Part shown: positions 50,025-64,000 of the stretch, piece by piece
Numbering within the stretch: the first letter of the stretch is position 1
How the letters are laid out: each line of letters opens with the position of its first letter
NCBI GenBank assembly: GCA_049285595.1
Contig: JBAQAF010000039.1
Span: 6,373-70,372 of the forward strand
Length of the DNA: 64,000 nt
Origin: Thermoplasmata archaeon
GTDB lineage: Archaea; Thermoplasmatota; Thermoplasmata; Lutacidiplasmatales; UBA184
Direction: 5' to 3'
The notes under the pieces: generated by a model
Database searches by the model: none
What the model was told of the DNA's origin: nothing
Seen by the model: the letters and a program-made list of their open reading frames with translations, nothing else
Position numbers and translations under genes: made by a program

Positions 50025-53000
50025 TTAGGCAGCCTCGCGACCCGAGACGGTCGCGACGAGTCCCGCGTGGCTCGCGAGCGCGGTAGACAACCGTGTGACC
50101 GCCGGCCCGAACGACTGGTGTTCGGGGGCGAAGGTCACGTGGATCGTCTGCGCGTGCGGCGTGTGCGACGGCAGGACGGGGGCCACCACGATCGGGGACG
50201 CGGGAGCTCCCGTGCCCGTGTCGCCGCCGACCACCGGGATGGTGTACGTGTACGTCCCGTTGGGCAGCTCGAACTTGATCGTGGCCGACGTGCTGCTCAG
50301 GGTGATTGGCGATCCTGGCACCGGGCCGGTCACCGTAACGGACCAGCTCGTGTGCGCCGCCAACCCGTGCTCGCTGAAGGTGATCGCCCCGGCGTTAAGC
50401 TTGAACTTAATCGCCTTGTTCACCGTGACGCTACCGACCGACAGACCGCCGTGGGCCGGAGCAGCGTCGTAGATCGCGGGCTTTGTCACTTCATACTTGT
50501 ACGGGGTACCCTTGGCGATGGTGAACGTCACGGTGCTGCCCGTGGTCGTGGCCGCCGAGCCGGCCGGGCCGCCCGTCCCCGACGGAACCAGGGTGATGCC
50601 CCAGGTCGTCAGAGCCGGCAGTCCGGGCCACGGTACGGACGTCACTTCGTTGAAGTTCACCGTCTGCAGCTTGCCGAAGTGCAGGGTAATGGTCGTGGTC
50701 GCAGAGATCGGGGCCGATCCGTAGAGCGTCCCGTGGGGTCCCGTCACCTTGGCGAGTCCGTAGCCCGCAGGCGCGGTCACGGTGAAGTCCAACGTCCCGT
50801 TGGGGGCGTTGAAGGGCACCGAGGTCGCAGGTCCCGTCACGTTCGCGGACGTCTTTTCGGTCGAGGGAGAGCCCGCGGTCACCGTGAACGCGGTGCCGGC
50901 ACCCGCCGTGATGCCCGACTCCTTGAACGTCACCGACTGTTCGAACGGAACGTAGCGGACCTGGAACCAGACCGCATCGCCACCGCCGCCGATCATGACG
51001 TTCGTGTTCAGGGAGCTCGGGTCAATCCACGGAGCCGCCGAGGAGACGGCGTTCGCCTGGCCGTTCCACACGTACATCCCCAAGGCGTTGGTGATGTGCG
51101 TGATCAGGTTGTAGTCGAGCGTCCGGTCCGGTCCTACTGGCAATCCCGCCGCGATGCCCATCCAGTTCACCGCGACCGTGTAGGCGACTCCCTGGCACTG
51201 GGTGGTCAGGCGGCCCAGAGCGGGGTTGTCGACAGAGTGGGCCCAGTAGTCGAGGTCCTGGATCGTCGAGCCGTAGTGGCCGCACGCCGAGATGTTAGCG
51301 CTCGTCTGGGTGCCTTCGCCAACCATTCCCGAGAAGGCATCCGCCGCCGTGTAGGTGGCGTTCGGGCCAACCTCGGGGACGGTGTAGTCGGTCGGGTCCG
51401 GATAGTCCGGAGCCCAGCCCGAGCCCGTCTCGGAGATCAGGGGGTTGGTGCCGGGCGCGTTGAAGGCGATGTCCAGGAACTGGTCGAAGGTCAGGTCAAA
51501 GGTGTACGGCGCAAGCGCGCCACCCGTGATCGTGGTGATCTCCGCCATCCAGTCCGCAATCGCGGCGTCATCACTCGGATCTGCGTCGAGACCCGCGATC
51601 GGGAACGTGCACGGAGTCGCATGCGAGCACGAAGCGAGCTGCGGATCGTAGTAGGACGAGATCGGGTTATTCGCCTGGGCCCACCACCACGCGGAGCCAC
51701 CGACATCCGACGGGTTCAGGTCAGGGTCCGTGTTCGGGAATGACACGTTCGTCGGGTAGTAGTTCCCGAGACCGACGGGAATCGCGCCACCCGCATTGAA
51801 GTCGAACTGGATACCGTCGACAGTCCGGATGGTGTTCTCGACCGTGGTGTAGGGGTAGGCCTCGACGTAGAACTCACGCAGTGCCGGGTTGGTGAAGAAG
51901 TTCACCGGGATGTTGGGCAGGGGCTCCGACGGGAAGTAGGTCGAGAATTCGGACGGGCTCCATCGGAGGTTGACCGGCGTGAAGAACTGCGTAATGGTCG
52001 GGTTGATAAAGTAGTTCAGGTCGCCCTCGGACGCCAGCAGCTTCAGCGTCGTCGTGTGCGCCGCCTCGATGCCGGCAAAGTCCGCGATGTGCGCCCGATA
52101 CTGGCTGATGCCGAACGAGTCGTCGGGCTCCCAATAGACCTGGACGTTGTGGATGAACGCGCTCGGCGCGGGGTCGCAGTAGCCACCATACGTCGCCGCG
52201 ACACCAACGCCCGAGCAGCCACCGGGCTGCAGGTACGCGGGGTTCTCAGCGAGCGTGTAGCCTGCGCCGGGGATGACACCCGCGTAGTACGGGCCGGATC
52301 CGACCATGTTCCACTGAACACCGCCATCGACGATCGGCGAGGTGACGGCCGTCTCTTCGAACGAGTCCCACGAGAGGGGGTCTACGCCCGCCAGGTATGC
52401 CGCCCACGCTGAGCTGTCGGTCGAGGTGATCAGGTGGCCCGGGGTGCTGCCCGGGAGTCCGCAGGGACCGTCCCCGTGGGACGCCCCGAAGTTCGCGAAG
52501 CCCGGCATCGCGGCGCCTTCATACGAGAACCAGCCGCACGGCTCAACGCTCGCGCCGAGGTTGTCCGCCACCAGCTGCAGGAAGTAGGGCCAGTCAGATC
52601 CCCCACCGTTTGCGACGAAGGTGACGCAACCGTGTTCGTTAGCGATCGCCGACGCCGGACAGTAGGCCGTCGAGTTGACGAGCATCGAGCTCAGGATGCT
52701 GTTGGCCGTGGTATTGAACGGGTAGTGAAGGCCACCGTCGTAGACGGGGCTTCCGTACTGGAGCAGCGACTGCGCCTGGATCCAGCCCGGGTTCTTCCCG
52801 ACGTAGGGAACTTCCGAGAAGGCCAGCGTCCGCGCTAGGCTGAACATGACGTCCGACGGGTAGACTCCCCAGGACGCGTGCGTGGTCGGGTCGTAGAACG
52901 AGGCTTGCTTGTCGATGACAAACGTCCAGTAGATCGGCTCACCCGCAAAGGGTCCGGCGCCGTCAGCGACCAGGCTGGAGCCGTAGTCGGACGTGCACTG

Positions 53001-53441
53001 AGCGTCGCCCGGAACGCAGGTCGCCACCGTGGGAACGAACGTCGTCGTCGAGTTCCCATTGTAGTTGACCAGCGTCTGGTAGACGTTGATGATCGGCTCG
53101 TAGCTCACCGTGTCGTACGCAATGGACGGGTCTTCAGAATTGGAGCCCCCCGGTGCCACTTCGTAGACATCAAGTGTGCCTGCGTGTGGCGAGTGGGGGG
53201 ACGCTTCAATCGCCCCGCCTACTGGTACGGCCGATGCGGTCGTCTGCTGGACGGCTGCCCCCTGCGCACCAGTGGTATGCGTTACCACCGGTGCGGCAGG
53301 CGTAACCGACGCGGCGCTCAAGGCGCCGGCGGCGACGGGCAACGCCATGCTCAAAACGAGCACGAACGTCGCGGCAATGACTGCCGTCCGTCTTGTCGCA
53401 ATCTCTCCCACCGAATAAGACCCTCCCGGCAATTGGGTCAC
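50025..53441 (-). CDS. ABC transporter substrate-binding protein (family 5, peptide/nickel type) with a long C-terminal repeat extension
   Basis: 1138 aa with a GTG start, the signal/TM 'AVIAATFVLVLSMALPVAAGA' and an SBP5-like core ('YDTVSYEPIINVYQTLVNYNG'). The last 330 aa or so are repeated beta-sandwich modules ('VTFKESGITAG', 'ITFSEHGLAAHTSWSVTVTG', 'LPNGTYTYTI'). Confidence 0.8.
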   Translation of the reverse strand: MTQLPGGSYSVGEIATRRTAVIAATFVLVLSMALPVAAGALSAASVTPAAPVVTHTTGAQGAAVQQTTASAVPVGGAIEASPHSPHAGTLDVYEVAPGGSNSEDPSIAYDTVSYEPIINVYQTLVNYNGNSTTTFVPTVATCVPGDAQCTSDYGSSLVADGAGPFAGEPIYWTFVIDKQASFYDPTTHASWGVYPSDVMFSLARTLAFSEVPYVGKNPGWIQAQSLLQYGSPVYDGGLHYPFNTTANSILSSMLVNSTAYCPASAIANEHGCVTFVANGGGSDWPYFLQLVADNLGASVEPCGWFSYEGAAMPGFANFGASHGDGPCGLPGSTPGHLITSTDSSAWAAYLAGVDPLSWDSFEETAVTSPIVDGGVQWNMVGSGPYYAGVIPGAGYTLAENPAYLQPGGCSGVGVAATYGGYCDPAPSAFIHNVQVYWEPDDSFGISQYRAHIADFAGIEAAHTTTLKLLASEGDLNYFINPTITQFFTPVNLRWSPSEFSTYFPSEPLPNIPVNFFTNPALREFYVEAYPYTTVENTIRTVDGIQFDFNAGGAIPVGLGNYYPTNVSFPNTDPDLNPSDVGGSAWWWAQANNPISSYYDPQLASCSHATPCTFPIAGLDADPSDDAAIADWMAEITTITGGALAPYTFDLTFDQFLDIAFNAPGTNPLISETGSGWAPDYPDPTDYTVPEVGPNATYTAADAFSGMVGEGTQTSANISACGHYGSTIQDLDYWAHSVDNPALGRLTTQCQGVAYTVAVNWMGIAAGLPVGPDRTLDYNLITHITNALGMYVWNGQANAVSSAAPWIDPSSLNTNVMIGGGGDAVWFQVRYVPFEQSVTFKESGITAGAGTAFTVTAGSPSTEKTSANVTGPATSVPFNAPNGTLDFTVTAPAGYGLAKVTGPHGTLYGSAPISATTTITLHFGKLQTVNFNEVTSVPWPGLPALTTWGITLVPSGTGGPAGSAATTTGSTVTFTIAKGTPYKYEVTKPAIYDAAPAHGGLSVGSVTVNKAIKFKLNAGAITFSEHGLAAHTSWSVTVTGPVPGSPITLSSTSATIKFELPNGTYTYTIPVVGGDTGTGAPASPIVVAPVLPSHTPHAQTIHVTFAPEHQSFGPAVTRLSTALASHAGLVATVSGREAA

Positions 53442-54431: not shown

Positions 54432-54533
54432 TGCTCCCGGCGGGAGTTTCCCCGGGCGGCGCGAACCGCCCGGTTTTGAACCCGCGTCAGAGGCTCGAGA
54501 GGCCTCTATCCTTGACCACTAGACTACGGGAGC
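54432..54533 (-). tRNA. tRNA-Glu (anticodon CUC) with a 29-nt intron in the T-loop (59/60)
   Basis: Folded by hand. Acceptor stem is GCUCCCG/CGGGAGC (7 bp) and the anticodon stem is GAGGC/GCCUC with loop C-U-CUC-G-A. The T-stem is GCGGG/CCCGC, the discriminator is A, no CCA is encoded, and TTTT lies downstream. The gene is 102 nt, or 73 nt after intron removal. Confidence 0.85.
54446..54474 (-). other. tRNA intron (bulge-helix-bulge) in the tRNA-Glu T-loop
   Basis: The intron is ACCGGGCGGUUCGCGCCGCCCGGGGAAAC. An inner 8-bp helix CCGGGCGG/CCGCCCGG is flanked by the 3-nt bulges AAA and ACU, which are separated by UUCA/GGAA (3 Watson-Crick pairs plus A.G). Confidence 0.7.
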
Positions 54534-55670: not shown

Positions 55671-58600
55671 CTACGACGACGGCGGCCGCCGGAACGGCCA
55701 GAACGGTGTCGCGGCCGGGGCGGCCGCCGCCGCAGTCGCCTCCCCGACTACGACGCCTTCCGCCTGGAGCAGCTTGAGGGCATCGCGCGCCTTCTCCAGG
55801 GCCGCCGGATAGTCGTTCGCCCGAAGGCGGAGCGATTCGGTGAGCAACGCGCGAGCCTTCGTGGTGTCGATCTCCCGCTCCTCGGCGCGGGCGAGCGCGG
55901 CGTCGATCAGGTAGTGCAGGTTCGTCAACTCCCGATGGAGCGATTTGCGCAGGTTCAGATCCTCTTCCACCTTCAGCAGTCGGGCGCCGCCTTCCAGCAC
56001 GCGGCCCGACGTGAGGAGATCGTCGGCCGCCTGGAGCTGCTCCTTCACGGGACCCACGCTGACGTGCAGACCCTCCTCCGCGAACGTCACCTCCGACGCG
56101 ACCTCCTTGCGGCGGCGTTGCAGGGGGCCCCGGACGCTCTCTTCGAGCGCGGCGCTCGCGCGGGCGAGGTGCGCGGTCGCCTCCCCGAGCCGGCCGGAGT
56201 CGACGGCCGCGCGCGCCTCGCCGAACGTCTGCATCGCGGGAGTGGTGTCAACCCCGAGGCGCTCGCCGACCCACAGGCGGTCCCGCAACGTGGCGACCGC
56301 CCGCAGCACGACCTCCCGGCGCTGACCACGGACGACCTCGAGCTCGGCGTGGGCGAGGCGGAGCGCTCCGCCGACGTCCCGGGAGGCTCGCAGCGTCCCG
56401 AGCTTCTTCGCGACGTCCTCGCGGCGGGACACTTCGGCGGGGGGGACGGGGCCGGTCTCCTTCGCGTCGGCCTCGACCTCCCTCCAGCGGCCATCGATCG
56501 TCTCCTCGAACAGGCGTCGGGCCGAATCCTCGGCCTGCACGATCGTGCTGCGTGCCTCCGTCCACTGGTGGGCGCGGGCCGCCGCCTCCGCGCTCGCGAC
56601 GAGCGCCTCGAGCGGCTCGAGCTCCGCAGAGAGCCCCTCGCCTCGGGCCGCCTCGGCCTGGCGACGCAGCTCCCCCAGCGGCGTCGCGAATGTCCGGTCG
56701 ATCGCCCAGCGGGCCATCTCGGTCGCTTCGCGGGCGCGTCGAACGGCGGGAGAGTAATGGCCGGCGGCGATCTCCTGACGCGCCTCGGCGAGCTCGGCCG
56801 AGGCGTCGGTCGCTTCCGCCCCGAGCGATTTCGCCTCGCTCAACTGATGTTCGGCGACCTCGATCGTCTCGCGACCCCGTCGCAGGCCGTCGCGGGCCGC
56901 GGCGACGACCTCGTAGACGAAGATCGTTCGCTCGAAGACGTCGGGATATGACCCTTTGGCGAACGACGACTTGCCGTTGCGCAGCGCATCCTGCGCCTCG
57001 GTCGCGACGACCCCCTCCGCGAGCGCCGTGGCGATCGCCTTCTCGGCCGCGACCAGCGACCCTTCGGCGAGCCGGTGCTGGAGGTCGGCCTGTTCGAGCT
57101 CCCGCTCGCTGCGCGCCGCGAGCTGCACGGAGTCGAGCGGACGGCCCTCGTCGAGCGACATCCTCGCTTGGTGCAGGAGATTCTCGGCGACCGAGGTGTT
57201 CGCCCCGTCGCGCCGCAGCTGCGTCACGGTCGCCTGGAACCCAGCGAGCGTCTTCGAGACGTGCCGGTACGTCGCCTGGTGGAGTTCCCGCTCGAGGGGA
57301 CCGGCGAGCTCGACGACGCGAGCGTACTCCCGCCCGGCGAGGAGGGCGTCGAACCGCTCCCCGCGGGAGCGCAGATCGCCGACGTCGACCCGCAGGAGGT
57401 CCGCCTGAGCGAGCGCCTCGTGCACCCGCTTGGCGGCCCGCTCGGCGTGTTCGACGAACCCGCGGGTGCTGATCAGGGCGCTGCGGACCTCGTCGATCAG
57501 CGCGGCGGCGCCCGTCGGCACGGGGAGCGCGACGCGGCGGCGCGCTTCGGCGAGCGGCGTCACGATCTTATCGAGCGGCACGCCTGCGGAGCGGGCGATG
57601 TCGAGGTCCCGTTCGAGCGACCGGAGGTTCTCGTCGAGGATCGGGCGAAGGATCGCGAGCAGCTCGTCATGCAATAGCATCGACCCGGTCCGGGTCGCCT
57701 CGGGCGCCGCGGTCGTCCGCTCCGTTCGGAGCGCTTCGAGGCGGTGGGCCATCGGTTCGACCGGGGCCCCCAGCTGTCGTCCTTCCTCGATCAGCAGACC
57801 GACCTCCCCGAGGAGGCGCTCGGTCTCGACCCGCGCGCTCTCCGCGGAGAGGCGTGACTCTACGTCGTCGAGGACGGTGCGGGCCTGGTCGAACCGCAGC
57901 GCCGAAAGGTCCTCTCGGGCCTGCTTGAGCGGCTCGTAGAACGTCGTCGGGTCGGCTCCGCCGGCGCGGATCCGCCCGAGCTGATCCTGCAGACGGGAGA
58001 TCCGTTCGACGATCGTATGAGCGGCGGCGCGGCCCCGGCCCGCGGACTCTTCCAGCTGGGAGGCGGTGCGGTACGCGTCGAGGTAGCGACCGTCCCGGGC
58101 CGACGCCTGCGCTTCGTCCAACAGCGGTCGAAGCGTCGTGAGGTCGAGGCCGATCGGCTCGAGCTCGACGAGGGCGAGCTTCGCGTGGGAGATCGCCTCG
58201 TCCGCGCGCAGGAGCTGCTGCTGGCGCGCGCGCGTGCGGATCTCCTGCGACGCGTGGGACGCCTGGACGAAGTCCCCCATGTTGAAGATCTGCTGGACCT
58301 CGTCGATCTGCCGCTGGATCTCGTCGCTCGCCCCGCCCATCGAGTCGAGCACCCGGACCTCGGCCTCGAGACCCTCGACCAGCGCCGAGGCGTGTACGCC
58401 GAAGACGGCGGAGAACTCCCGCTCCGCGCGATGCAGGCTCTCGACGGAGGCGACGATGTCCTGCTTCACGCGGAGCGCGACGTCCGCGTCGGCGAGCAGC
58501 CGCCGCACCGGGGCGGTGAGCGCCGCGTCGGAGATCTCGACGAACGACTTCTCCATCTCCTCCACGCGGCGCGCCACGTACGGACCCGCCGAGGTGCGCA

Positions 58601-60167
58601 GCTCGACCTCGTATCGGGCGATCCGTTCGGCCGCCGCGCCGAGATCTCCGGCGTCGAGCAGGGTGCGCGCCTCGGCGAGCAGCCCCTCGGTCTCCCCCGA
58701 AACGAACCCGTGCTCATGGGCGTACGACCGGGTCCGCTCGAGGGTGCTCCACCGCTCGACAAAGAATCGGAGCGCCTCCTTGCCGGCGACCCGGATCGCC
58801 TCTTTGAGCGCCTCCTTCGCGGCCGGCACGTCCGCCCGGTCGAGGAACGTCCGGACGCGGGCGACGGAGGCGTCGTACTGCTCGCTCGGGAATCCAGCCG
58901 AGCGGAATCGAACGAGCATCTCCTGCAACGTGGCGAGCTCTCCGCGCGATGAGTCGAGGTCCTCGGTGAGCCCGCTGACCCGGTCGAGCGCCTCCTGCGC
59001 GGCCGCGAGCGCCTCGGAGTAGATCTTCAGGCGAAGGGCTTCGCGCGCGCGGTTCATCGCGGCGAACACCTCGCTCGGGTCCCGGCCGAGCCGTCGGGCG
59101 CCTGCGATGCGGGGCCGGACCTCGTCGAGCAGACCAGCAACGACGGTGACGATCGGCTCCTCAGCGGCGATGCGCGCATCCGAGAGCAGCCCGGCGATAT
59201 CGCGGGGCGCCGTCGTCGGCAGCCGCGCGAGCGCGGTCTCGACCGCCGCGATCGCGGCCGCGGCGTCGACCTCGAACTCCCCGACCGTCACCAGCGATCC
59301 TCGAAGCCCCTCGAGGATCTGCCGGCACCGTTCCCGGAGCCCCTCGGCGACCTCGGGGATCGCCGCCTCGATCGCCCCGACGGTCTCGGGCCATCGGTCG
59401 ATGCGGGCGACCTCGTCCGCGCGCAGGGCCGCGTCGAGCGGACCGGTCGGCGCTCCGAGCTCCTCCGCGGTGCCGCGCAGACGCTCGGCGTTCTCGCGGG
59501 TGGATCGGTGGCGCTCGACGGCCTCGGGGAGACCGCTCGTCAGGGCGCGTTGGACCGTCGTGAGCGCGTCGGCGAGCGCGTCGTCCCGGGCCGAGACGAC
59601 GACCTCGGGAAGACCCCGCTCGAACTCGGTGAGCCGGACGCCCTCGAGCCCGGCCCATTTCGCCACCGTAAGGGCACGCCCCCGTACCCCTTCGAGGTAG
59701 CCGGTCGCGGCGTCCCGGATGCCGTCCTCGACCTTCGTCAGGCGAGCGAGCGAATCGGTCCAGGCCGCTTCGGCCGGGGGGTGCGCGAGCGCCTCGAGCT
59801 CGGTCGCGAGCTCCGGCGGAAAGGAGATGCCGAGGCCGGTGAGCCGACCGAGCGACTCGCCGGTACGCCGGCGCCGATCCTCGAGCAGGCCCGGGACGGA
59901 CGAGGCGAGGTCGGCGAGCAGCCCCTGGGACGCGGTCTCGACCTGGTCCCAGTCGGAACGGCGGACGAGCTCGCGGATCTCGTTGATGCGGGTGAGGGCG
60001 CTGGGCGGCACGATCCCCAGGCGCTCGAGCTGGCCGACCCGCTCCTCGGCCTCCTTCAGAGCGACCTCGGCGGTCTGGCGCTTCTTGCGCAGAGCCTCGG
60101 CCTTTTCCTGAAGGATCCGGGTCAGCCGGGACGACGGTAGAGGTCCGACGCCTCCCGGACCGGACAC
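55671..60167 (-). CDS. Giant all-helical tandem-repeat protein (about 60-aa TPR/MIT-like units), function unknown
   Basis: 1498 aa with a GTG start preceded by GGAGGT (5-nt spacer). No TM, signal peptide or enzymatic motif was seen. I counted about 18-20 repeats by eye carrying the signature L..A...L..G.[YFWL]..A. It is A/E/R/L-rich. Confidence 0.75.
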   Translation of the reverse strand: MSGPGGVGPLPSSRLTRILQEKAEALRKKRQTAEVALKEAEERVGQLERLGIVPPSALTRINEIRELVRRSDWDQVETASQGLLADLASSVPGLLEDRRRRTGESLGRLTGLGISFPPELATELEALAHPPAEAAWTDSLARLTKVEDGIRDAATGYLEGVRGRALTVAKWAGLEGVRLTEFERGLPEVVVSARDDALADALTTVQRALTSGLPEAVERHRSTRENAERLRGTAEELGAPTGPLDAALRADEVARIDRWPETVGAIEAAIPEVAEGLRERCRQILEGLRGSLVTVGEFEVDAAAAIAAVETALARLPTTAPRDIAGLLSDARIAAEEPIVTVVAGLLDEVRPRIAGARRLGRDPSEVFAAMNRAREALRLKIYSEALAAAQEALDRVSGLTEDLDSSRGELATLQEMLVRFRSAGFPSEQYDASVARVRTFLDRADVPAAKEALKEAIRVAGKEALRFFVERWSTLERTRSYAHEHGFVSGETEGLLAEARTLLDAGDLGAAAERIARYEVELRTSAGPYVARRVEEMEKSFVEISDAALTAPVRRLLADADVALRVKQDIVASVESLHRAEREFSAVFGVHASALVEGLEAEVRVLDSMGGASDEIQRQIDEVQQIFNMGDFVQASHASQEIRTRARQQQLLRADEAISHAKLALVELEPIGLDLTTLRPLLDEAQASARDGRYLDAYRTASQLEESAGRGRAAAHTIVERISRLQDQLGRIRAGGADPTTFYEPLKQAREDLSALRFDQARTVLDDVESRLSAESARVETERLLGEVGLLIEEGRQLGAPVEPMAHRLEALRTERTTAAPEATRTGSMLLHDELLAILRPILDENLRSLERDLDIARSAGVPLDKIVTPLAEARRRVALPVPTGAAALIDEVRSALISTRGFVEHAERAAKRVHEALAQADLLRVDVGDLRSRGERFDALLAGREYARVVELAGPLERELHQATYRHVSKTLAGFQATVTQLRRDGANTSVAENLLHQARMSLDEGRPLDSVQLAARSERELEQADLQHRLAEGSLVAAEKAIATALAEGVVATEAQDALRNGKSSFAKGSYPDVFERTIFVYEVVAAARDGLRRGRETIEVAEHQLSEAKSLGAEATDASAELAEARQEIAAGHYSPAVRRAREATEMARWAIDRTFATPLGELRRQAEAARGEGLSAELEPLEALVASAEAAARAHQWTEARSTIVQAEDSARRLFEETIDGRWREVEADAKETGPVPPAEVSRREDVAKKLGTLRASRDVGGALRLAHAELEVVRGQRREVVLRAVATLRDRLWVGERLGVDTTPAMQTFGEARAAVDSGRLGEATAHLARASAALEESVRGPLQRRRKEVASEVTFAEEGLHVSVGPVKEQLQAADDLLTSGRVLEGGARLLKVEEDLNLRKSLHRELTNLHYLIDAALARAEEREIDTTKARALLTESLRLRANDYPAALEKARDALKLLQAEGVVVGEATAAAAAPAATPFWPFRRPPSS

Positions 60168-60291: not shown

Positions 60292-60678
60292 TCACGTCCG
60301 GGTGATGAGTCGCTTGCCCATCGCATCGACGTATTGGATCTCCGCCCCGGGTGCGAGGAGCGCCTTCGTCTCCGCATCGAGCGGGAGCGTGAACGTCTCG
60401 TACGACTCCAGGTCCATCAGCTGGACCTCGCCCTCGGTCATCGACAGGACCTGAGCCTGCCGCTTACCGATCAACGGCACGCGGATCTTGTGGGTCACGG
60501 GGAAGACGACGCTGCGCTTGGAGCCGTCAAAGACACCGACCGCGTCGATCCGTGCCTTCGCTTCACCGTGCTTTCCCGGTTTTGACATCTGGATGCTGAT
60601 GATGCGGCACGGCTCTTCCTCGATGAGCATGTAGCGCCCCACCTTCAGCTCCCGGACCTCCTGCTGCGTCCAGGCCAT
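60292..60678 (-). CDS. eif5a: Translation initiation factor 5A (aIF5A)
   Basis: 128 aa with the hypusination loop '[13 protein letters not shown]'. Confidence 0.95.
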
Positions 60679-60830
60679 GATCTTCTCCTCGGAGGCCCAC
60701 GCAGCGGAACGGTGGCATAAGAGTTGCTCCGATGCGGAATTCCTCCGGCGCGGTAGGTCCCTGGCTTGCGACCGAGGGTTTATTCCCGCCCAGGTCGCTC
60801 GATAGACGGCGGGGGACGTAGGCGGGAGCG

Positions 60831-63800
60831 ATGCCGGAGGAGGCGCGGCAGTTCACCGTTCGCTCGCTCGAGCCGGACGTCCGGGCCCTGTGGCGGAGCC
60901 GACGTCTCCCCCCGCCGGGCGGACTCCTCGGTCCGAAGGACGGGGCGATCGTTCGCCAGTTCGAGGGGTCGATCGCGCCCGGAGATCCCCCCGAGATGAT
61001 CGCTCATCGCGCGGTCGCCGCCGACGTCGACGCGCGGCACCTGATGCTGTCGGGCCGTGGGGTCTCGGGGACGCTGCGCTACGAGGTGCGCCGCGAGGAG
61101 ACGGAGCCCAATCCGATCGGACCGTTGCTCGAGACGCTGGGCGTCTGGACCGGCGGGGCGGCCGACCGGCCGTGGGACTCGGCCGACCGCATGACGGGGA
61201 TCCAGGCGATCGTCTCGCGCCTGGCCCGTCGGGAGATCCTCGCCGCTCGCGACGGCCCCCTGCGGCTCTGCCTTTCGTGCCGGGTCCCCCGGACCCCCGA
61301 GCGGATCATCTACCAGAAGGAGGTCGGCGACACGTTCCTGGTCCGGTTCCCCCTGCAGGGTACCGACCCTCCGGTCGACGCTCTGGTCTGGGTCGATGCC
61401 CCCTGGCGGCTTCTCGGCGCGAGCGCCCTCCTCGTCCATCCCGAGGTCCCGTACGCGGTCGTGGAGTACCGCCACAAGGGGTCGAGCGCGCTCCTCCTCG
61501 TCTCCCGCGGCGCGCTCGATCGATTGCGCGCCTGGCTGCCCGACGTCGAGCTCGAGGTCCGGGAAGAGCGGCCGGGCCGCGAGTGGGTGGGCCGGCCCTA
61601 CGCCTACCCGCTCCGCCATGAATTCCCCATCGGGGGAGGGCTCGACCCGCCCGCGGGAACGGTACAGGCGGACCTCGAGGTCGGCGACACCGGGACCGGG
61701 ATCGTGCCGCTCGTCCCGGGCCACGGACCGACCGACGCGGAGATCGCGGACCGCCTGGGGATCACCGGATGGCCCCTGCTCACCCCGAGCGGGTTGCTCG
61801 ACCCGACCTTGATGCACAAGTACTCGGGGCTCGATGTGGAGACGGCCAACGAGTTCGTCTCCCGGGACCTGACGGAGAGCGGCGCGGTCCTTGCCCGACT
61901 GCGGGTCGTCCGGGGGGTCCCGTACTGTGCCATCTGCGGCCACCGGATGGTCTGGGTCCCGGGGCGGGCCTGGTGCCTCGAGCCGACCCGGCTCCCGGCG
62001 GAGCAGAAGGACCGGTACGCCCACCTGTTGCCGCGGGATCGACCGATCGGCCAGATCGAGATCGCCCGCTGGCCGGTGAGCGAGACGAGTGCCTCCCGCG
62101 ACCCCAGCGCGATCTCGCTGCTCGAATGCGCGCGATGCGAGCGCCTCGACGCCCCCGACGGGCCGATCGAATGTCCGTGCGGCGGGACACGACGGTTGGT
62201 CGCTCGGCGGCTCCTTCCATCGATCGGCGGGGCGTTCGGCGCCTGGTCGCGCTGCGATCCGCTCCCGCGGGCCGACACGGTCCGCATCTATACCAACGAA
62301 CGTCGGCGCGTTCCCGCGCTCGTCCACCACCTCAGTGCGATGACCGGGATCGACGCGTCCATTTCCGAGATCGGTCTCACGCTCGTTCCGACCGTCGCCC
62401 GGATCGACCTGGCGGAGCTCGTCGCCGCGCACGGCGCGGATGCGGTCCGTGCCGCGTTCGTACGCACGGCCGGCGCCGGCGGTTCCACGACGACGTTCGA
62501 GGAACGGTGTCGGCAAGAGGAGGAGCGGTGTGCGCGATTCTTCTCGCAGGCCGAGGCCCTCCTAGAGCATTGCACCCCCGAGATCTTGCGAGAGGGGGCT
62601 CGACCCCCCGATGCGGCGGCGCGGGACCTCGAGGTCGAGGACCGAGCGATCCTCGCCCGGTGGGCGCGCACGCACCTGCGCGTACTGGCATCGTACGACC
62701 GCTGGCAGCCGGACACCGCGCACCGTCAGCTGTTCCGATTCCTCGAACGCGACCTCCTCGAGTATCTCGAGATCACCCGGCCGCGCCTCGACTTCGCCGG
62801 CTCCCCCGCCACGAAGCGGGGGGCCCTGCGCACGCTCGTCTACCTGTTCCGCGCGGCGGCGATCGCGCTCGCCCCGATCGCCCCGTTCACGGCCGACACG
62901 GTGCACCGGCGTCTCCTCGGGGAACCTCGGAGCCTGTTCGAATCGACCGACCTCGGGGGAGACCGGACGCTAGTCAACGAGGAGCTGGCTACCGCTTGGG
63001 ACCGCTGGCATGCGGTGATCGCCTCCGCCGACACGTTCCGCCGCGATCATCACCTCGCGTCGTCCACGCAACTCCCCCTCGCGGCGATCGTCTTCCGGGA
63101 CGAGGAGACGGCGGCCCGGCTTCGGGCGGACCGCGCGACGATCGAGCGGCTCGCGAGGATCGCCCGGCTCGAGGTGACGAGCCCGCAGGTCCCGTGGGCA
63201 GCCCGCCAACGGCGACTCGTTCCCGTGGAGAGCGAGATCCAGCGCGCCTATCCGGCGCTCGCGACGCAGATCGTCCACCTTCTCGAGCGGATGCCGCCTC
63301 GACGGAGTACCGAGTCGCCCGGGCGCGAGCTCACCGTCTTCGTCCACGGGGTGCCCCGTACGATCACCCCGGAGATGGTGACGACGGTCGACACGCTCCC
63401 GGAGGGGTACGCGCCGATCCCGTACGGGCCGGGGGAGATGTACGTCCAGCCGCCGCCGAAGGGCGAATCGATCGCAACGCCCCCGCCGCTCTCCTCGGAC
63501 GCCTTTTGGGTAGTCCGGTGGGTCCGTCGCCGGCTCGCGGCCGCCCCCGCGGCGGGCGATCCCGCCGGACACGTCGCGATCGTCTCCGCGGTCGATCCGC
63601 TCGCCGCCGAGCTTCGAGAAAAATCCGCCGCGATCGCGGAGTACCTCGGGCTCCGTGAGCTGCGCATCGTCGGCAACGTCCCCGAGTCGCTTCCGCACGC
63701 TCAGATGGAGGGCCGGACCCGAACGGGGGCGCGGTGGACGGTCTCACTGCCGGGGATCGCGGCCCACCACCGCCTACCGAAGCGTCGAACCGCCCGTTCG

Positions 63801-64000
63801 GACGGCCGGCGCGTTCGCCCTCCCCGGGAGCCGACGGCCCCGGCCGAGGTCGATTACGCGGACGATGCGGTGATCGCCCGGGAGGAGTCGATCCGCGATC
63901 TCGGCCGCGAGCTCGATGCGCTGCTCGCCGCACCGCTCCTCGGTCCCGCCAAGGTGACGATCGCCTGGGAAGCCGGTCTCCGTTCGATGCAAGAGTATCG
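60831..64000 (+). CDS. Isoleucyl-tRNA-synthetase-like protein lacking HIGH and KMSKS (3' end outside the window)
   Basis: Not in the supplied track. I translated this frame codon by codon. ATG 60831 follows an in-frame TAG (60819-60821), and no stop occurs to 64000 (more than 1056 codons). The class Ia architecture is present, including CP1 '[15 protein letters not shown]', Zn-knuckle positions 'YCAICGH' and 'ECPCGG', '[10 protein letters not shown]' and the anticodon-binding helices. Confidence 0.8.

What the first reader, a model, noticed from the sequence alone, without database searches (positions are those of the whole stretch)
60831..64000. Full-length IleRS-like gene, invisible in the ORF track, with both class-I catalytic signatures eroded
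The reading frame whose codons start at positions divisible by 3 is open from ATG 60831 to the window edge. An in-frame TAG at 60819-60821 precedes the ATG. The ORF is missing from the track only because its stop lies outside the window.

My hand translation shows the complete IleRS-type domain order:
- N-terminal Rossmann half.
- '[10 protein letters not shown]' knuckle position.
- CP1 insertion ('[10 protein letters not shown]', '[15 protein letters not shown]').
- '[13 protein letters not shown]' and '[21 protein letters not shown]'.
- '[12 protein letters not shown]'.
- Anticodon-binding helices ('[38 protein letters not shown]', '[16 protein letters not shown]').
- A C-terminal domain plus an extra tail.

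The catalytic signatures are degraded:
- The HIGH position reads E-M-I-A-H (aa about 55-59, nt about 60993-61007).
- No KMSKS or K/R-x-S-K/R-S exists anywhere. The equivalent site reads [10 protein letters not shown] (aa about 515-524, nt about 62373-62402).
- The DW.ISRQR.WG and DQ.RGWF blocks are unrecognisable.
- The catalytic core is about 80-90 aa shorter than I expect.
- The CP1 editing threonine cluster (WTTTPW) reads WVDAPW.

The ORF stays open over more than 3 kb with normal codon usage, which argues for selection rather than a decaying pseudogene. The candidates are an aaRS-derived pseudo-enzyme (tRNA-binding, regulatory or scaffold paralogue) or an extraordinarily divergent sole IleRS.
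Basis: partly seen in the sequence, partly recalled or inferred. Interest (0 to 1): 0.85.

Follow-up and report, generated by a model that had tools for sequence, protein, structure and literature searches.

The report
Dead IleRS with KaiC-like signalling tail
This gene encodes a full-size copy of isoleucyl-tRNA synthetase that has lost every residue needed to charge tRNA yet is strictly conserved across an order of soil archaea, attached by a long flexible linker to a signalling-type domain, so it is probably a tRNA-binding regulator or scaffold rather than an enzyme.

Summary
An ORF is open from ATG 60831 to the window edge. It encodes an IleRS-shaped protein whose HIGH, WDxHG, DQxRGWF and KMSKS sites are all replaced.

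It is not a decaying pseudogene. dN/dS is 0.13, and 96 GTDB species representatives carry it, all Thermoplasmata MAGs (Ca. Lutacidiplasmatales/UBA184).

It is not the sole IleRS. A fully intact ileS of a different type occurs in these archaea. One copy lies on a 2,307,657-bp contig, the same length as a contig carrying the pseudo-gene.

The window shows only about 60% of the gene. Orthologues continue into an HhH motif, a 60-570 aa proline-rich linker and a C-terminal DUF835, which models as a KaiC/FlaH-like domain without a Walker A motif.

The same IleRS–HhH–DUF835 fusion, catalytically intact, is annotated as the ordinary IleRS in Methanomassiliicoccales. The pseudo-enzyme body resembles that fused lineage most and the resident working IleRS least. 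At least three other Thermoplasmatota lineages lost the motifs independently.

Best reading: the native fused IleRS lost catalysis after another IleRS took over, and is kept for a tail-dependent, probably tRNA-linked, regulatory or scaffolding role. Function is inferred, not shown. No description was found in the searched literature.

The parts
60773..60785 (+). Conserved promoter-like element CGAGGGTTTATTC (BRE/TATA type), about 55 nt upstream of the ATG
   Evidence: Nearly invariant in an alignment of 37 orthologous upstream regions. Promoter function is inferred from archaeal promoter consensus, not shown.
60831..64000 (+). Pseudo-IleRS gene, N-terminal 1056 codons. The gene runs off the window; orthologues add roughly 350-800 aa.
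60831..61265 (+). First half of the former Rossmann catalytic fold (aa 1-145). Not recognised by any IleRS profile.
   Evidence: canonical profile positions 1-160 never match. Model topology b1 40-48 / helix 54-73.
60993..61010 (+). HIGH-equivalent site, E-M-I-A-H-R (aa 55-60). The family reads x-L-V-A-[Q/H]-R.
61071..61079 (+). WDxHG-equivalent (aa 81-83, T-L-R; L82 and R83 invariant). The Asp that binds the amino-acid amino group is lost, and the ~35 aa that follow are deleted.
61266..62000 (+). CP1 (editing-type) insertion domain, remodelled. WTTTPW is replaced by W-V-D-A-P-W (aa 187-192). GTGxVHxAPxHGxxD is replaced by [15 protein letters not shown] (aa 288-302, terminal Asp kept). It is flanked by Zn knuckle C147/C150 + C366/C369.
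   Evidence: dN/dS 0.069.
62001..62405 (+). CP2 region with second Zn site (C433, C436, C448, C450) and second half of the former Rossmann fold
62295..62309 (+). E-R-R-R-V (aa 489-493) in place of the DQxRGWF motif. R491 and R492 are invariant, R493 nearly so.
62376..62396 (+). KMSKS-equivalent loop, L-T-L-V-P-T-V (aa 516-522). It has no basic residue and the loop is about 16 aa shorter.
   Evidence: Strand 513-519, loop, helix 527.
62406..63080 (+). Helical anticodon-binding domain (Pfam Anticodon_1, aa 604-749)
63081..63860 (+). C-terminal IleRS type-2 tRNA-binding domains (DUF5915-equivalent, aa ~751-1010)
   Evidence: Foldseek alignment to 8c9d/8c8v including the C-terminal tRNA-binding domain. 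Canonical profile matched up to position ~960.
63861..64000 (+). Start of the helix-hairpin-helix module, cut by the window edge
   Evidence: Pfam HHH_5 in orthologues. Profile hits to the eL32 N-terminal extension and Pol X.
60292..60678 (-). aIF5A gene, divergently transcribed. Conserved neighbour of the pseudo-IleRS.
   Evidence: Pfam IF5A-like_N / eIF-5a. Adjacent and divergent in 69 of 70 species-representative loci.
55671..60167 (-). 1498-aa Ala/Leu/Arg/Glu-rich protein that looks helical from its composition, of unknown family. Conserved member of the same gene block.
   Evidence: Next to aIF5A in 41 of 43 loci. No Pfam or PDB sequence match.

Best explanation
What it is (shown). The gene encodes an isoleucyl-tRNA-synthetase-derived pseudo-synthetase of Ca. 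Lutacidiplasmatales (GTDB order UBA184).
- It keeps the whole type-2 IleRS architecture: Rossmann-fold shell, two zinc knuckles, CP1 domain, anticodon-binding helices and C-terminal tRNA-binding domains.
- All four motifs that bind ATP and isoleucine and stabilise the adenylation transition state are substituted or deleted, so it cannot make Ile-AMP or Ile-tRNA.
- The full protein continues into an HhH motif, a long proline-rich disordered linker and a C-terminal DUF835 domain. DUF835 models as a KaiC/FlaH-like RecA-type domain without a P-loop (an 'inactivated KaiC', known elsewhere as an output domain of archaeal response regulators).

Where it came from (well supported). The IleRS-HhH-DUF835 fusion is ancestral in Thermoplasmatota, and a catalytically intact form is annotated as the ordinary IleRS in Methanomassiliicoccales. 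In Lutacidiplasmatales a second, distantly related IleRS with all motifs intact and no tail does the charging. The native fused copy lost catalysis but was kept under strong purifying selection.

How it most likely works (inferred). The dead IleRS body still docks tRNA-Ile, or the tRNA 3' end in the heavily conserved, remodelled CP1 pocket. It serves as the input or recognition module. The HhH adds non-specific nucleic-acid contact, and the flexible linker tethers it to the DUF835 module, which docks onto a partner such as a KaiC-like ATPase ring. The protein would therefore act as a tRNA-linked sensor or adaptor coupling translation status to a signalling or assembly hub. The closest analogy is the HisRS-like domain of GCN2.
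For: Loss of catalysis:
- No PF00133 hit, and TIGR00392 scores 100 of the 621 bits required.
- The motif columns are replaced in all 119 members examined.
- Direct alignment with intact archaeal IleRS confirms the columns.
- The canonical IleRS HMM matches only CP1 and the anticodon/C-terminal parts in all 80 loci.

Fold retained:
- AF2 pLDDT is 84.8, and Foldseek finds 8c9d at E=4e-46 over about 1100 columns.
- All 8 Zn-ligand cysteines are invariant.

Selection and distribution:
- dN/dS is 0.13 overall and 0.07 in CP1.
- 96 species-representative genomes carry it, all Thermoplasmata.
- UBA184 and SubAcS13-64 are among them, which places the carriers in Lutacidiplasmatales.
- A conserved promoter-like element lies upstream.

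Tail:
- PF05763 and HHH_5 hit the orthologues, and 47 of 51 complete genes end in DUF835.
- The tail model has pLDDT 95.4, with FlaH 4yds and KaiC as best structural matches and no GK[ST] loop.
- DUF835 is described as an iKaiC output domain of response regulators (PMC5847659).

Working IleRS present:
- The P0230-like clade is named 'isoleucine--tRNA ligase [Thermoplasmata archaeon]', has all motifs intact, and comes from the same peat and soil projects at 68-75% GC.
- Member P0478 is on a 2,307,657-bp contig. That is the length of CAWEHV010000002.1, which carries the pseudo-gene.

Origin:
- Pseudo bodies score highest against the fused-intact HMM (157-271 bits) and lowest against the resident IleRS HMM (58-104 bits).
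- Intact fused IleRS include the protein annotated as M. luminyensis IleRS.
- A graded series of erosion and at least three independent cases of complete erosion exist in other lineages.

Translation link:
- aIF5A is the divergent neighbour in 69 of 70 loci.
Against: - There is no experimental or expression evidence of any kind.
- tRNA binding is inferred only from retained domains and fold.
- The partner and role of DUF835 are unknown in any organism, and no KaiC-like ATPase is conserved in the neighbourhood.
- Co-occurrence with a working ileS in one genome rests on exact contig-length identity, not on reading the contig. Length coincidences did occur for short contigs (17,987 and 11,760 bp).
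- CP1 is the most constrained domain and carries family-specific invariant His/Asp/Glu residues (H263, E264, H298, D302, H329, D189). These could mean a new catalytic activity, in which case 'pseudo-enzyme' would be wrong in the strict sense.
- Conserved synteny within a single order may be inheritance rather than a functional link.

My confidence that it is a selected IleRS derivative dead for aminoacylation is about 0.9. My confidence in the specific sensor/adaptor mechanism is about 0.35.
Confidence: 0.6

Rival explanations
1. It is still an enzyme, but with a new activity. The remodelled and highly conserved CP1 pocket, or the Arg-lined former adenylate pocket, would catalyse a different reaction. 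Examples are trans-deacylation of a mischarged or unusual aminoacyl-tRNA, or chemistry on the tRNA 3' end.
For: - CP1 has the lowest dN/dS, 0.069.
- The universally conserved editing Asp is kept as D302.
- New invariant motifs appear: [12 protein letters not shown], MHKYxGL and W-V-D-A-P-W.
- R491, R492 and R493 are invariant or nearly so in the former active site.
- aaRS paralogues with new chemistry are known, for example SbzA (PMC9437257).
Against: - Five of the six canonical post-transfer editing residues are replaced: three Thr of WTTTPW, the following Thr/Asn, and the His of GTGxVH.
- Without HIGH and KMSKS no ATP-dependent class-I chemistry is expected.
- No structural or sequence match to any other hydrolase was found.
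- Model coordinates could not be inspected, so clustering of the invariant residues was not tested.
Confidence: 0.15
2. It is a tRNA-independent structural scaffold or tether. The IleRS shell would be kept only as a protein-protein interaction platform, for example binding the working IleRS, other synthetases, the ribosome or the conserved 1500-aa helical neighbour. DUF835 would act as an anchoring module.
For: - The gene block with a large protein that looks helical from its composition and with aIF5A is conserved.
- A long disordered linker is typical of tethers.
- From my own knowledge, not checked here: archaeal multi-synthetase complexes are known.
- The HhH module resembles the N-terminal extension of a haloarchaeal ribosomal protein, eL32.
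Against: - The anticodon-binding and C-terminal tRNA-binding domains are under as strong constraint as the rest (dN/dS 0.10 and 0.17). That is not expected if only a surface patch mattered.
- No interaction data exist.
Confidence: 0.2
3. It is an extremely divergent but active IleRS, and the only one in the genome.
For: It has a full-length IleRS fold and strong conservation. Two searches with Thermoplasmatota IleRS queries found no canonical ileS on the large Lutacidiplasmatales contigs.
Against: - All of HIGH, WDxHG, DQxRGWF and KMSKS are replaced or deleted in every member.
- An intact IleRS clade annotated as Thermoplasmata exists in the same environments. One member sits on a contig of the same 2,307,657-bp length as a pseudo-gene carrier.
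Confidence: 0.02
4. It is a decaying pseudogene, a chance high-GC ORF or a mis-assembly.
For: Long spurious ORFs are common at 70% GC, and overlapping ORFs of 578 and 629 aa exist on other frames.
Against: - dN/dS is 0.13, and GC3 of 0.87 is specific to this frame.
- There are over 180 protein clusters, and 96 species representatives carry the same architecture from independent assemblies made with short and long reads.
- A conserved promoter element lies upstream.
Confidence: 0.01

Closest known systems
Type-2 (archaeal/eukaryote-like) isoleucyl-tRNA synthetase, e.g. PDB 8c9d, 1ile, 8wnd
   Same: Same overall fold and domain order over about 1000 residues, both zinc knuckles, the CP1 insertion, the Anticodon_1 domain and the C-terminal tRNA-binding domain.
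   Different: It lacks HIGH, WDxHG, DQxRGWF and KMSKS, and the core is about 100 aa shorter. The editing-site Thr cluster and His are replaced. It fails the PF00133 and TIGR00392 thresholds. It carries an HhH, a Pro-rich linker and a DUF835 tail.
IleRS-HhH-DUF835 fusion proteins of Thermoplasmatota, annotated as isoleucine--tRNA ligase in Methanomassiliicoccales including M. luminyensis (P0448, P0339, P0208, P0209)
   Same: Same domain order, including the HhH and the C-terminal DUF835. This is the closest lineage by HMM score.
   Different: Those proteins have strong tRNA-synt_1 matches, all motifs intact, and short linkers with two HhH motifs and Zn ribbons. The window family has none of the motifs and a linker expanded to 60-570 aa with about 26% Pro.
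HisRS-like domain of the eIF2-alpha kinase GCN2 (from my own knowledge, not tested here)
   Same: A synthetase-derived module that has lost aminoacylation, fused to a signalling output module, coexisting with the working synthetase. In GCN2 it binds uncharged tRNA to signal amino-acid starvation.
   Different: GCN2 is eukaryotic and class II (HisRS), with a kinase as output. Here the module is class Ia IleRS and archaeal, and the output is an inactivated KaiC-like domain of unknown partner. tRNA binding is not shown.
SLIMP, HisZ and other aaRS-like pseudo-synthetases reviewed in PMC9437257
   Same: A duplicated or displaced synthetase that keeps its fold (and in SLIMP tRNA binding), has lost charging, and serves a regulatory role.
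   Different: None derives from IleRS. The review lists only IleRS2 and SbzA as IleRS paralogues. None carries a KaiC-like domain.
[quoted passage not shown]
   Same: Same C-terminal DUF835 (iKaiC) module at the output position of a multidomain protein.
   Different: The input there is a phospho-receiver domain. Here the N-terminal module is a dead IleRS.

Membership tests
Isoleucyl-tRNA synthetase (class Ia aaRS; Pfam PF00133, NCBIfam TIGR00392) | HIGH (HxGH/HxGT) signature at the N-terminus of the first Rossmann helix | tested here: not met
   The window reads E-M-I-A-H-R. The family reads x-L-V-A-[Q52/H41]-R. The position is confirmed by model topology and by alignment to intact IleRS.
Isoleucyl-tRNA synthetase (class Ia aaRS; Pfam PF00133, NCBIfam TIGR00392) | KMSKS loop after the last Rossmann strand | tested here: not met
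   L-T-[VL]-[LV]-P-T-V, with no Lys or Arg and a shortened loop.
Isoleucyl-tRNA synthetase (class Ia aaRS; Pfam PF00133, NCBIfam TIGR00392) | Amino-acid and adenylate pocket motifs WDxHGLP and DQxRGWF | tested here: not met
   Replaced by G-T-L-R and E-R-R-R-x-P-A.
Isoleucyl-tRNA synthetase (class Ia aaRS; Pfam PF00133, NCBIfam TIGR00392) | Score above the curated family thresholds | tested here: not met
   No PF00133 hit. TIGR00392 scores 100 bits against a cutoff of 621.
Isoleucyl-tRNA synthetase (class Ia aaRS; Pfam PF00133, NCBIfam TIGR00392) | IleRS three-dimensional architecture with CP1, Zn knuckles, anticodon-binding and C-terminal domains | tested here: met
   Foldseek finds 8c9d at E=4e-46 and TM 0.63. 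The Cys ligands are invariant. Anticodon_1 scores 1e-14.
Isoleucyl-tRNA synthetase (class Ia aaRS; Pfam PF00133, NCBIfam TIGR00392) | CP1 post-transfer editing site (WTTTPW, GTGxVHxAP, conserved Asp) | tested here: not met
   W-V-D-A-P-W and G-T-G-I-V-P-L-V-P. Only the Asp (D302) is kept.
Isoleucyl-tRNA synthetase (class Ia aaRS; Pfam PF00133, NCBIfam TIGR00392) | Ile activation and tRNA-Ile charging activity | not testable with these tools
   Needs ATP-PPi exchange and aminoacylation assays.
Thermoplasmatota IleRS-HhH-DUF835 fusion lineage | Domain order: IleRS body, HhH, linker, C-terminal DUF835 | tested here: met
   Seen in orthologues P0002, P0026, P0037 and P0013. 47 of 51 complete genes in species representatives end in DUF835. 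The tail itself lies outside the window.
Thermoplasmatota IleRS-HhH-DUF835 fusion lineage | The body is most similar to that lineage rather than to other IleRS groups | tested here: met
   Fused-intact HMM scores 157-271 bits, against 58-222 bits for four other groups, in all 16 pseudo sequences tested. No formal phylogeny was made.
DUF835 / inactivated KaiC (iKaiC) domain, PF05763 | PF05763 match above the gathering score | tested here: met
   P0002 scores 54.6 bits against a cutoff of 33.1. P0026, P0037 and P0013 also pass.
DUF835 / inactivated KaiC (iKaiC) domain, PF05763 | RecA/KaiC-like fold lacking the Walker A P-loop | tested here: met
   The model has pLDDT 95.4. FlaH 4yds (E=6e-5) and KaiC (TM up to 0.70) are the best matches. 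The b1-a1 loop has no GK[ST] in any of 26 aligned tails.
aaRS-derived pseudo-synthetases (GCN2 HisRS-like domain, SLIMP type) | Catalytic residues lost while the gene stays under purifying selection | tested here: met
aaRS-derived pseudo-synthetases (GCN2 HisRS-like domain, SLIMP type) | Coexists with a working synthetase of the same specificity in the same genome | tested here: met
   An intact IleRS clade annotated as Thermoplasmata exists. Member P0478 is on a 2,307,657-bp contig, equal to the pseudo-gene carrier CAWEHV010000002.1. This is based on exact contig length, not on reading the contig.
aaRS-derived pseudo-synthetases (GCN2 HisRS-like domain, SLIMP type) | Binds tRNA without charging it | not testable with these tools
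   Only the retention of the tRNA-binding domains is shown.

The most novel reading that the evidence does not exclude
The protein would be an archaeal sensor of tRNA-Ile charging status, or of isoleucine supply.
- The dead IleRS body would bind uncharged or mischarged tRNA-Ile.
- Through the flexible linker it would switch the DUF835/iKaiC module's engagement with a KaiC-like ATPase hub.
- Archaea, which lack RelA/SpoT and GCN2 (my own knowledge), would thereby have a starvation-sensing route analogous to GCN2.

The intact IleRS-DUF835 fusions of Methanomassiliicoccales would then be enzymes with a built-in reporter of their own activity. The repeated loss of catalysis elsewhere would show that the reporting function is the one that cannot be lost.
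Probability: 0.15. Interest if true: 0.85.

Novelty: new variant of a known kind. Interest (0 to 1): 0.66.

Why it matters
Synthetase-derived pseudo-enzymes are a known kind, but I found no published IleRS-derived example and none tied to a KaiC-like signalling module. The literature searches found no description of this family or of the IleRS-DUF835 fusion.

Three things make it useful.

1. It is a natural experiment. The same fusion exists fully active, half-eroded and dead in related archaea. That shows the fused IleRS has a second, catalysis-independent function important enough to be kept when another IleRS takes over.

2. It gives a concrete, testable handle on DUF835/iKaiC, a domain proposed to be part of archaeal signalling hubs but with no known partner. 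It also bears on how archaea couple translation status to regulation.

3. It is an annotation trap. Databases call members 'class I tRNA ligase family protein', 'valyl-tRNA synthetase' or 'isoleucine--tRNA ligase', which could lead completeness or metabolic surveys to count a dead copy as ileS.

Tried and rejected
1. Contig-length matching between pseudo-IleRS clusters and canonical IleRS found with P0228 or with a 12-sequence high-GC Thermoplasmatota profile. No large-contig match was found.

2. Five look-ups of that high-GC tail-less IleRS clade: P0298 JAJPHT01, P0316 DATLFM01, P0313 DATMKA01, P0318 CAZDGP01 and P0315 JBFILE01. None is among the 80 carrier genomes listed. I conclude that clade probably belongs to other high-GC Thermoplasmata lineages. 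The P0312 look-up returned only JGI and ENA contigs and no NCBI assembly.

3. P0250, on a 1.6-Mb ENA contig, was looked up as a possible resident IleRS. It comes from a 38%-GC organism and is unrelated.

4. A search for marker genes shared between the canonical-IleRS loci and the pseudo-IleRS loci found none.

5. The supplementary tables of the Lutacidiplasmatales paper were searched for K01870, ileS and PF00133. There were no occurrences.

6. Exact length matches of 17,987 bp and 11,760 bp between canonical and pseudo clusters were rejected as coincidences. The sources differ, and L113, which covers 15.3 of the 17,987 bp, shows no pseudo-gene.

7. Sequence searches of the 1498-aa neighbour and the 249-aa downstream protein against Pfam and PDB gave nothing.

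8. No KaiC-like ATPase is conserved near the gene. One occurs 8 kb upstream in L005 only.

9. One all-against-all BLAST timed out and was repeated on a subset.

10. Makarova et al. 2017 (PMC5717392), the primary iKaiC description, is not held in the library.

I therefore could not test whether the family-specific invariant residues cluster in the CP1 or Rossmann pockets.

Full report
**1. The observation**

The frame beginning at ATG 60831 is open for 1056 codons to the window edge. It is preceded by the in-frame TAG at 60819-60821.

The genome is about 70% GC, and long spurious ORFs overlap the region on other frames. Three lines of evidence show this is the coding frame:
- GC3 is 0.87 against GC2 0.54.
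- More than 180 homologous protein clusters exist.
- dN/dS is 0.13 against an 84%-identical orthologue.

**2. It has the shape of IleRS but not the chemistry**

- Pfam finds only the anticodon-binding domain (1e-14) and no tRNA-synt_1.
- NCBIfam ileS scores 100 bits against a cutoff of 621.
- PDB IleRS sequences align only to CP1 (aa ~146-390) and to aa ~525-785. Even a 113-sequence family profile leaves aa 1-95 and 439-525 unaligned.
- An AlphaFold2 model (pLDDT 84.8, pTM 0.77) superposes on type-2 IleRS 8c9d at E=4e-46 over about 1100 columns, including the C-terminal tRNA-binding domain. Yeast IleRS, 1ile and ValRS follow, with LeuRS far behind.
- Model topology puts P-E-M-I-A-H at the start of the first Rossmann helix, which is the HIGH position. 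It puts P-T-V-A-R-I-D in the loop after the last Rossmann strand, which is the KMSKS position.

Across 119 family members:
- The HIGH column reads x-L-V-A-[Q/H]-R.
- The KMSKS column reads L-T-V-L-P-T-V.

Alignment with intact archaeal IleRS (H-I-G-T, F-D-M-H-G-L-P, D-Q-T-R-G-W-F, K-M-S-K-S) shows all four motifs replaced. It also shows about 100 residues deleted from the core.

Some features are invariant in the family:
- Both zinc knuckles.
- R60 and the '[10 protein letters not shown]' stretch.
- An E-R-R-R cluster where DQxRGWF should be.

In CP1, WTTTPW has become W-V-D-A-P-W and GTGxVHxAP has become G-T-G-I-V-P-L-V-P. Only the universally conserved editing Asp (D302) is kept. CP1 is nevertheless the most constrained domain, with dN/dS 0.069.

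**3. The window cuts the gene**

The identical database protein continues to 1094 aa and is still partial. Orthologues are 1400-1850 aa. Their architecture runs in this order:
- IleRS-like body.
- Helix-hairpin-helix motif.
- Low-complexity linker, median about 370-416 aa depending on how the boundaries are set, range 63-568 in complete genes, about 26-28% Pro, median five PPP motifs.
- C-terminal DUF835.

DUF835 is listed as an 'inactivated KaiC' output domain of archaeal response regulators (PMC5847659). I confirmed the fold:
- A model of the tail has pLDDT 95.4.
- Its best structural matches are FlaH/ArlH and KaiC (TM up to 0.70).
- None of 26 aligned tails has a Walker A GK[ST].

**4. Distribution and neighbourhood**

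An exhaustive search finds about 100 representatives at 50% clustering. Full-length members go down to 32% identity, and then the score drops sharply.

A scan of one genome per GTDB species finds 96 carriers. The 80 listed are all Thermoplasmata MAGs from soil and peat, and they include UBA184 and SubAcS13-64. These belong to Ca. Lutacidiplasmatales, which has 65-71% GC and genomes of 1.4-2.5 Mb (PMC9287336).

The gene block is conserved:
- aIF5A is the adjacent, divergently transcribed neighbour in 69 of 70 loci.
- A ~1500-aa Ala/Leu/Arg/Glu-rich protein of unknown family follows it in 41 of 43 loci.
- A ~250-aa ORF follows downstream in 29 of 47 loci.

The shared intergenic region holds a nearly invariant CGAGGGTTTATTC about 55 nt upstream of the ATG (window 60773-60785). 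A mirror element serves aIF5A. Together they look like back-to-back archaeal promoters.

**5. Where it came from**

Just below the family in the exhaustive search lie long IleRS proteins from other Thermoplasmatota. They have the same HhH-DUF835 tail but a strong tRNA-synt_1 domain and all motifs intact. Searches with canonical Thermoplasmatota IleRS show that this fused form is what is annotated as isoleucine--tRNA ligase in Methanomassiliicoccales, including cultured Methanomassiliicoccus luminyensis (P0448, 1301 aa). I did not check whether those genomes hold a second ileS.

All IleRS-like representatives longer than 1150 aa carry DUF835. They form a graded series:
- Intact.
- Partly eroded: P0211, P0214, P0215, P0222, P0226, P0229.
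- Fully eroded: P0210, P0213, P0216, P0235, P0238, P0256.

The fully eroded ones fall into at least three lineages. Two of these (P0213, P0216) are closer to intact or partly eroded fused proteins than to any other dead lineage. Loss of catalysis with retention of the fusion therefore happened repeatedly.

**6. Is there a working IleRS in the same genomes?**

This took several attempts, listed under Tried and rejected.
- A high-GC, tail-less Thermoplasmatota IleRS clade looked promising. None of the five assemblies I traced is among the 80 carrier genomes listed.
- The answer came from P0230, a very GC-rich, fully intact IleRS only 35-42% identical to anything else I held.
- A metagenome scan with P0230 found a clade at 52-57% identity in the same peat and soil projects that yielded the pseudo-gene (the Ga03350xx series and Ga0326727/8). 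These loci have 68-75% GC, and the one locus I scanned (L105) has archaeal-type neighbours such as a geranylgeranyl reductase.
- Exact look-up of ten translations showed they are annotated 'isoleucine--tRNA ligase [Thermoplasmata archaeon]'.
- One cluster member (P0478, NCBI+ENA) lies on a contig of 2,307,657 bp. That is exactly the length of CAWEHV010000002.1, which carries the pseudo-gene at 1.57 Mb.
- These 987-1009-aa enzymes have nearly all synthetic and editing motifs intact; a regex missed one motif in each of two of the eleven sequences.

The pseudo-IleRS bodies, scored without their tails, fit the fused-intact HMM best (157-271 bits). They fit the HMM of their own genomes' working IleRS worst (58-104 bits). 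The pseudo-enzyme is therefore the native fused gene, displaced in catalysis by a distantly related IleRS. It is not a recent duplicate.

**7. What it most likely does**

Shown:
- It cannot activate isoleucine.
- It is under strong purifying selection in every domain.
- It keeps all the tRNA-binding modules of IleRS.
- It is covalently tethered to a KaiC-like module that elsewhere sits at the output position of response regulators.

Inferred:
- The dead body is a recognition module for tRNA-Ile, or for its 3' end in the remodelled CP1 pocket.
- The tail docks to an unknown partner, perhaps a KaiC-like ATPase ring.
- The protein would then be a sensor or adaptor linking translation status to regulation or assembly.

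The existence of active fusions and their repeated catalytic death argue that this second function predates the loss of catalysis and is the one being selected.

Alternatives that remain open:
- A new enzymatic activity in CP1.
- A purely protein-protein scaffold.

The 'sole divergent IleRS' and 'pseudogene' readings are excluded.

**8. Novelty**

NCBI and JGI annotate members generically ('class I tRNA ligase family protein', 'DUF835 domain-containing protein', 'valyl-tRNA synthetase'). I found no paper describing the family or the IleRS-DUF835 fusion. A 2022 review of aaRS paralogues lists only IleRS2 and SbzA for IleRS.

It is a new variant of a known kind, the synthetase-derived pseudo-enzyme. 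It has an unusual partner domain and an informative evolutionary series.

Noticed in passing
window 60292-60678 (-) and the linker of the full-length orthologues (e.g. P0002 aa ~1095-1695): The conserved divergent neighbour is aIF5A. From my own knowledge, this factor relieves ribosome stalling at polyproline. The pseudo-IleRS linker is about 26% Pro with a median of 5 and up to 15 PPP motifs. The pairing may be a regulatory link or may be only inherited synteny.
   Followed up: partly
window 55671-60167 (-): A 1498-aa Ala/Leu/Arg/Glu-rich protein, helical-looking by composition, with no Pfam or PDB sequence match. It is conserved next to aIF5A and the pseudo-IleRS in 41 of 43 species loci. 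It may be part of the same system.
   Followed up: partly
window 50025-53441 (-): A second very large ORF (1138 aa) with coding-type GC3 and no Pfam hit.
   Followed up: no
window 54446-54533 (-): ARAGORN calls an 88-nt tRNA-Glu(CUC). Rfam's tRNA model scores 28 bits, just under its gathering score of 29, and matches only 54466-54529. The sequence looks like a tRNA with an extra ~15-20 nt inserted near the T-arm, possibly a non-canonical archaeal intron.
   Followed up: partly
L104-L125, L129 (JGI peat/soil contigs); proteins P0454-P0488: The working IleRS of Lutacidiplasmatales is an unusual type (HxGH, GWDCHGLP, KMSKS, ~990 aa). P0454 scores only ~470-550 bits (BLAST) against other Thermoplasmatota IleRS, which score about 1000 or more among themselves. 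Its relative P0230 is 34-42% identical to any other IleRS held and is closest to a low-GC unknown and to Thermoprotei. This suggests replacement by a foreign ileS.
   Followed up: partly
proteins P0210, P0213, P0216, P0235, P0238, P0256 (dead) and P0211, P0214, P0215, P0222, P0226, P0229 (partly eroded): Other Thermoplasmatota lineages carry IleRS-HhH-DUF835 proteins at different stages of motif loss, in at least three independent dead lineages. Some are annotated as isoleucine--tRNA ligase, for example P0214.
   Followed up: partly
L038 and L098 (JASHPK01, MAG JOPF047): One MAG holds two copies of the pseudo-IleRS on different contigs. This could be a real duplication, strain mixture or bin contamination.
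   Followed up: no
L054, L092, L094, L097 (long-read MFD MAGs): The four complete-looking genes that lack a DUF835 end are all in long-read assemblies. The canonical ileS fragment P0478 (667 of 987 aa) is from one of them. This suggests frameshift errors in GC-rich or Pro-rich stretches rather than real truncation.
   Followed up: no
family profile positions 1028-1156 (HhH region; begins at window ~63912): The HhH module matches the N-terminal extension of haloarchaeal ribosomal protein eL32 (1s72_Y, 9l94_Q; E about 1e-6 to 6e-8) as well as Pol X. This hints that the module is used elsewhere to attach proteins to the ribosome or to nucleic acid.
   Followed up: no
L001 15534-16468 and equivalents, downstream of the gene and outside the window: A ~250-aa ORF and an overlapping ~60-78-aa ORF follow the pseudo-IleRS on the same strand in most loci. 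The small ORF has weak glycine-zipper or membrane-like hits. Neither has a known family.
   Followed up: partly
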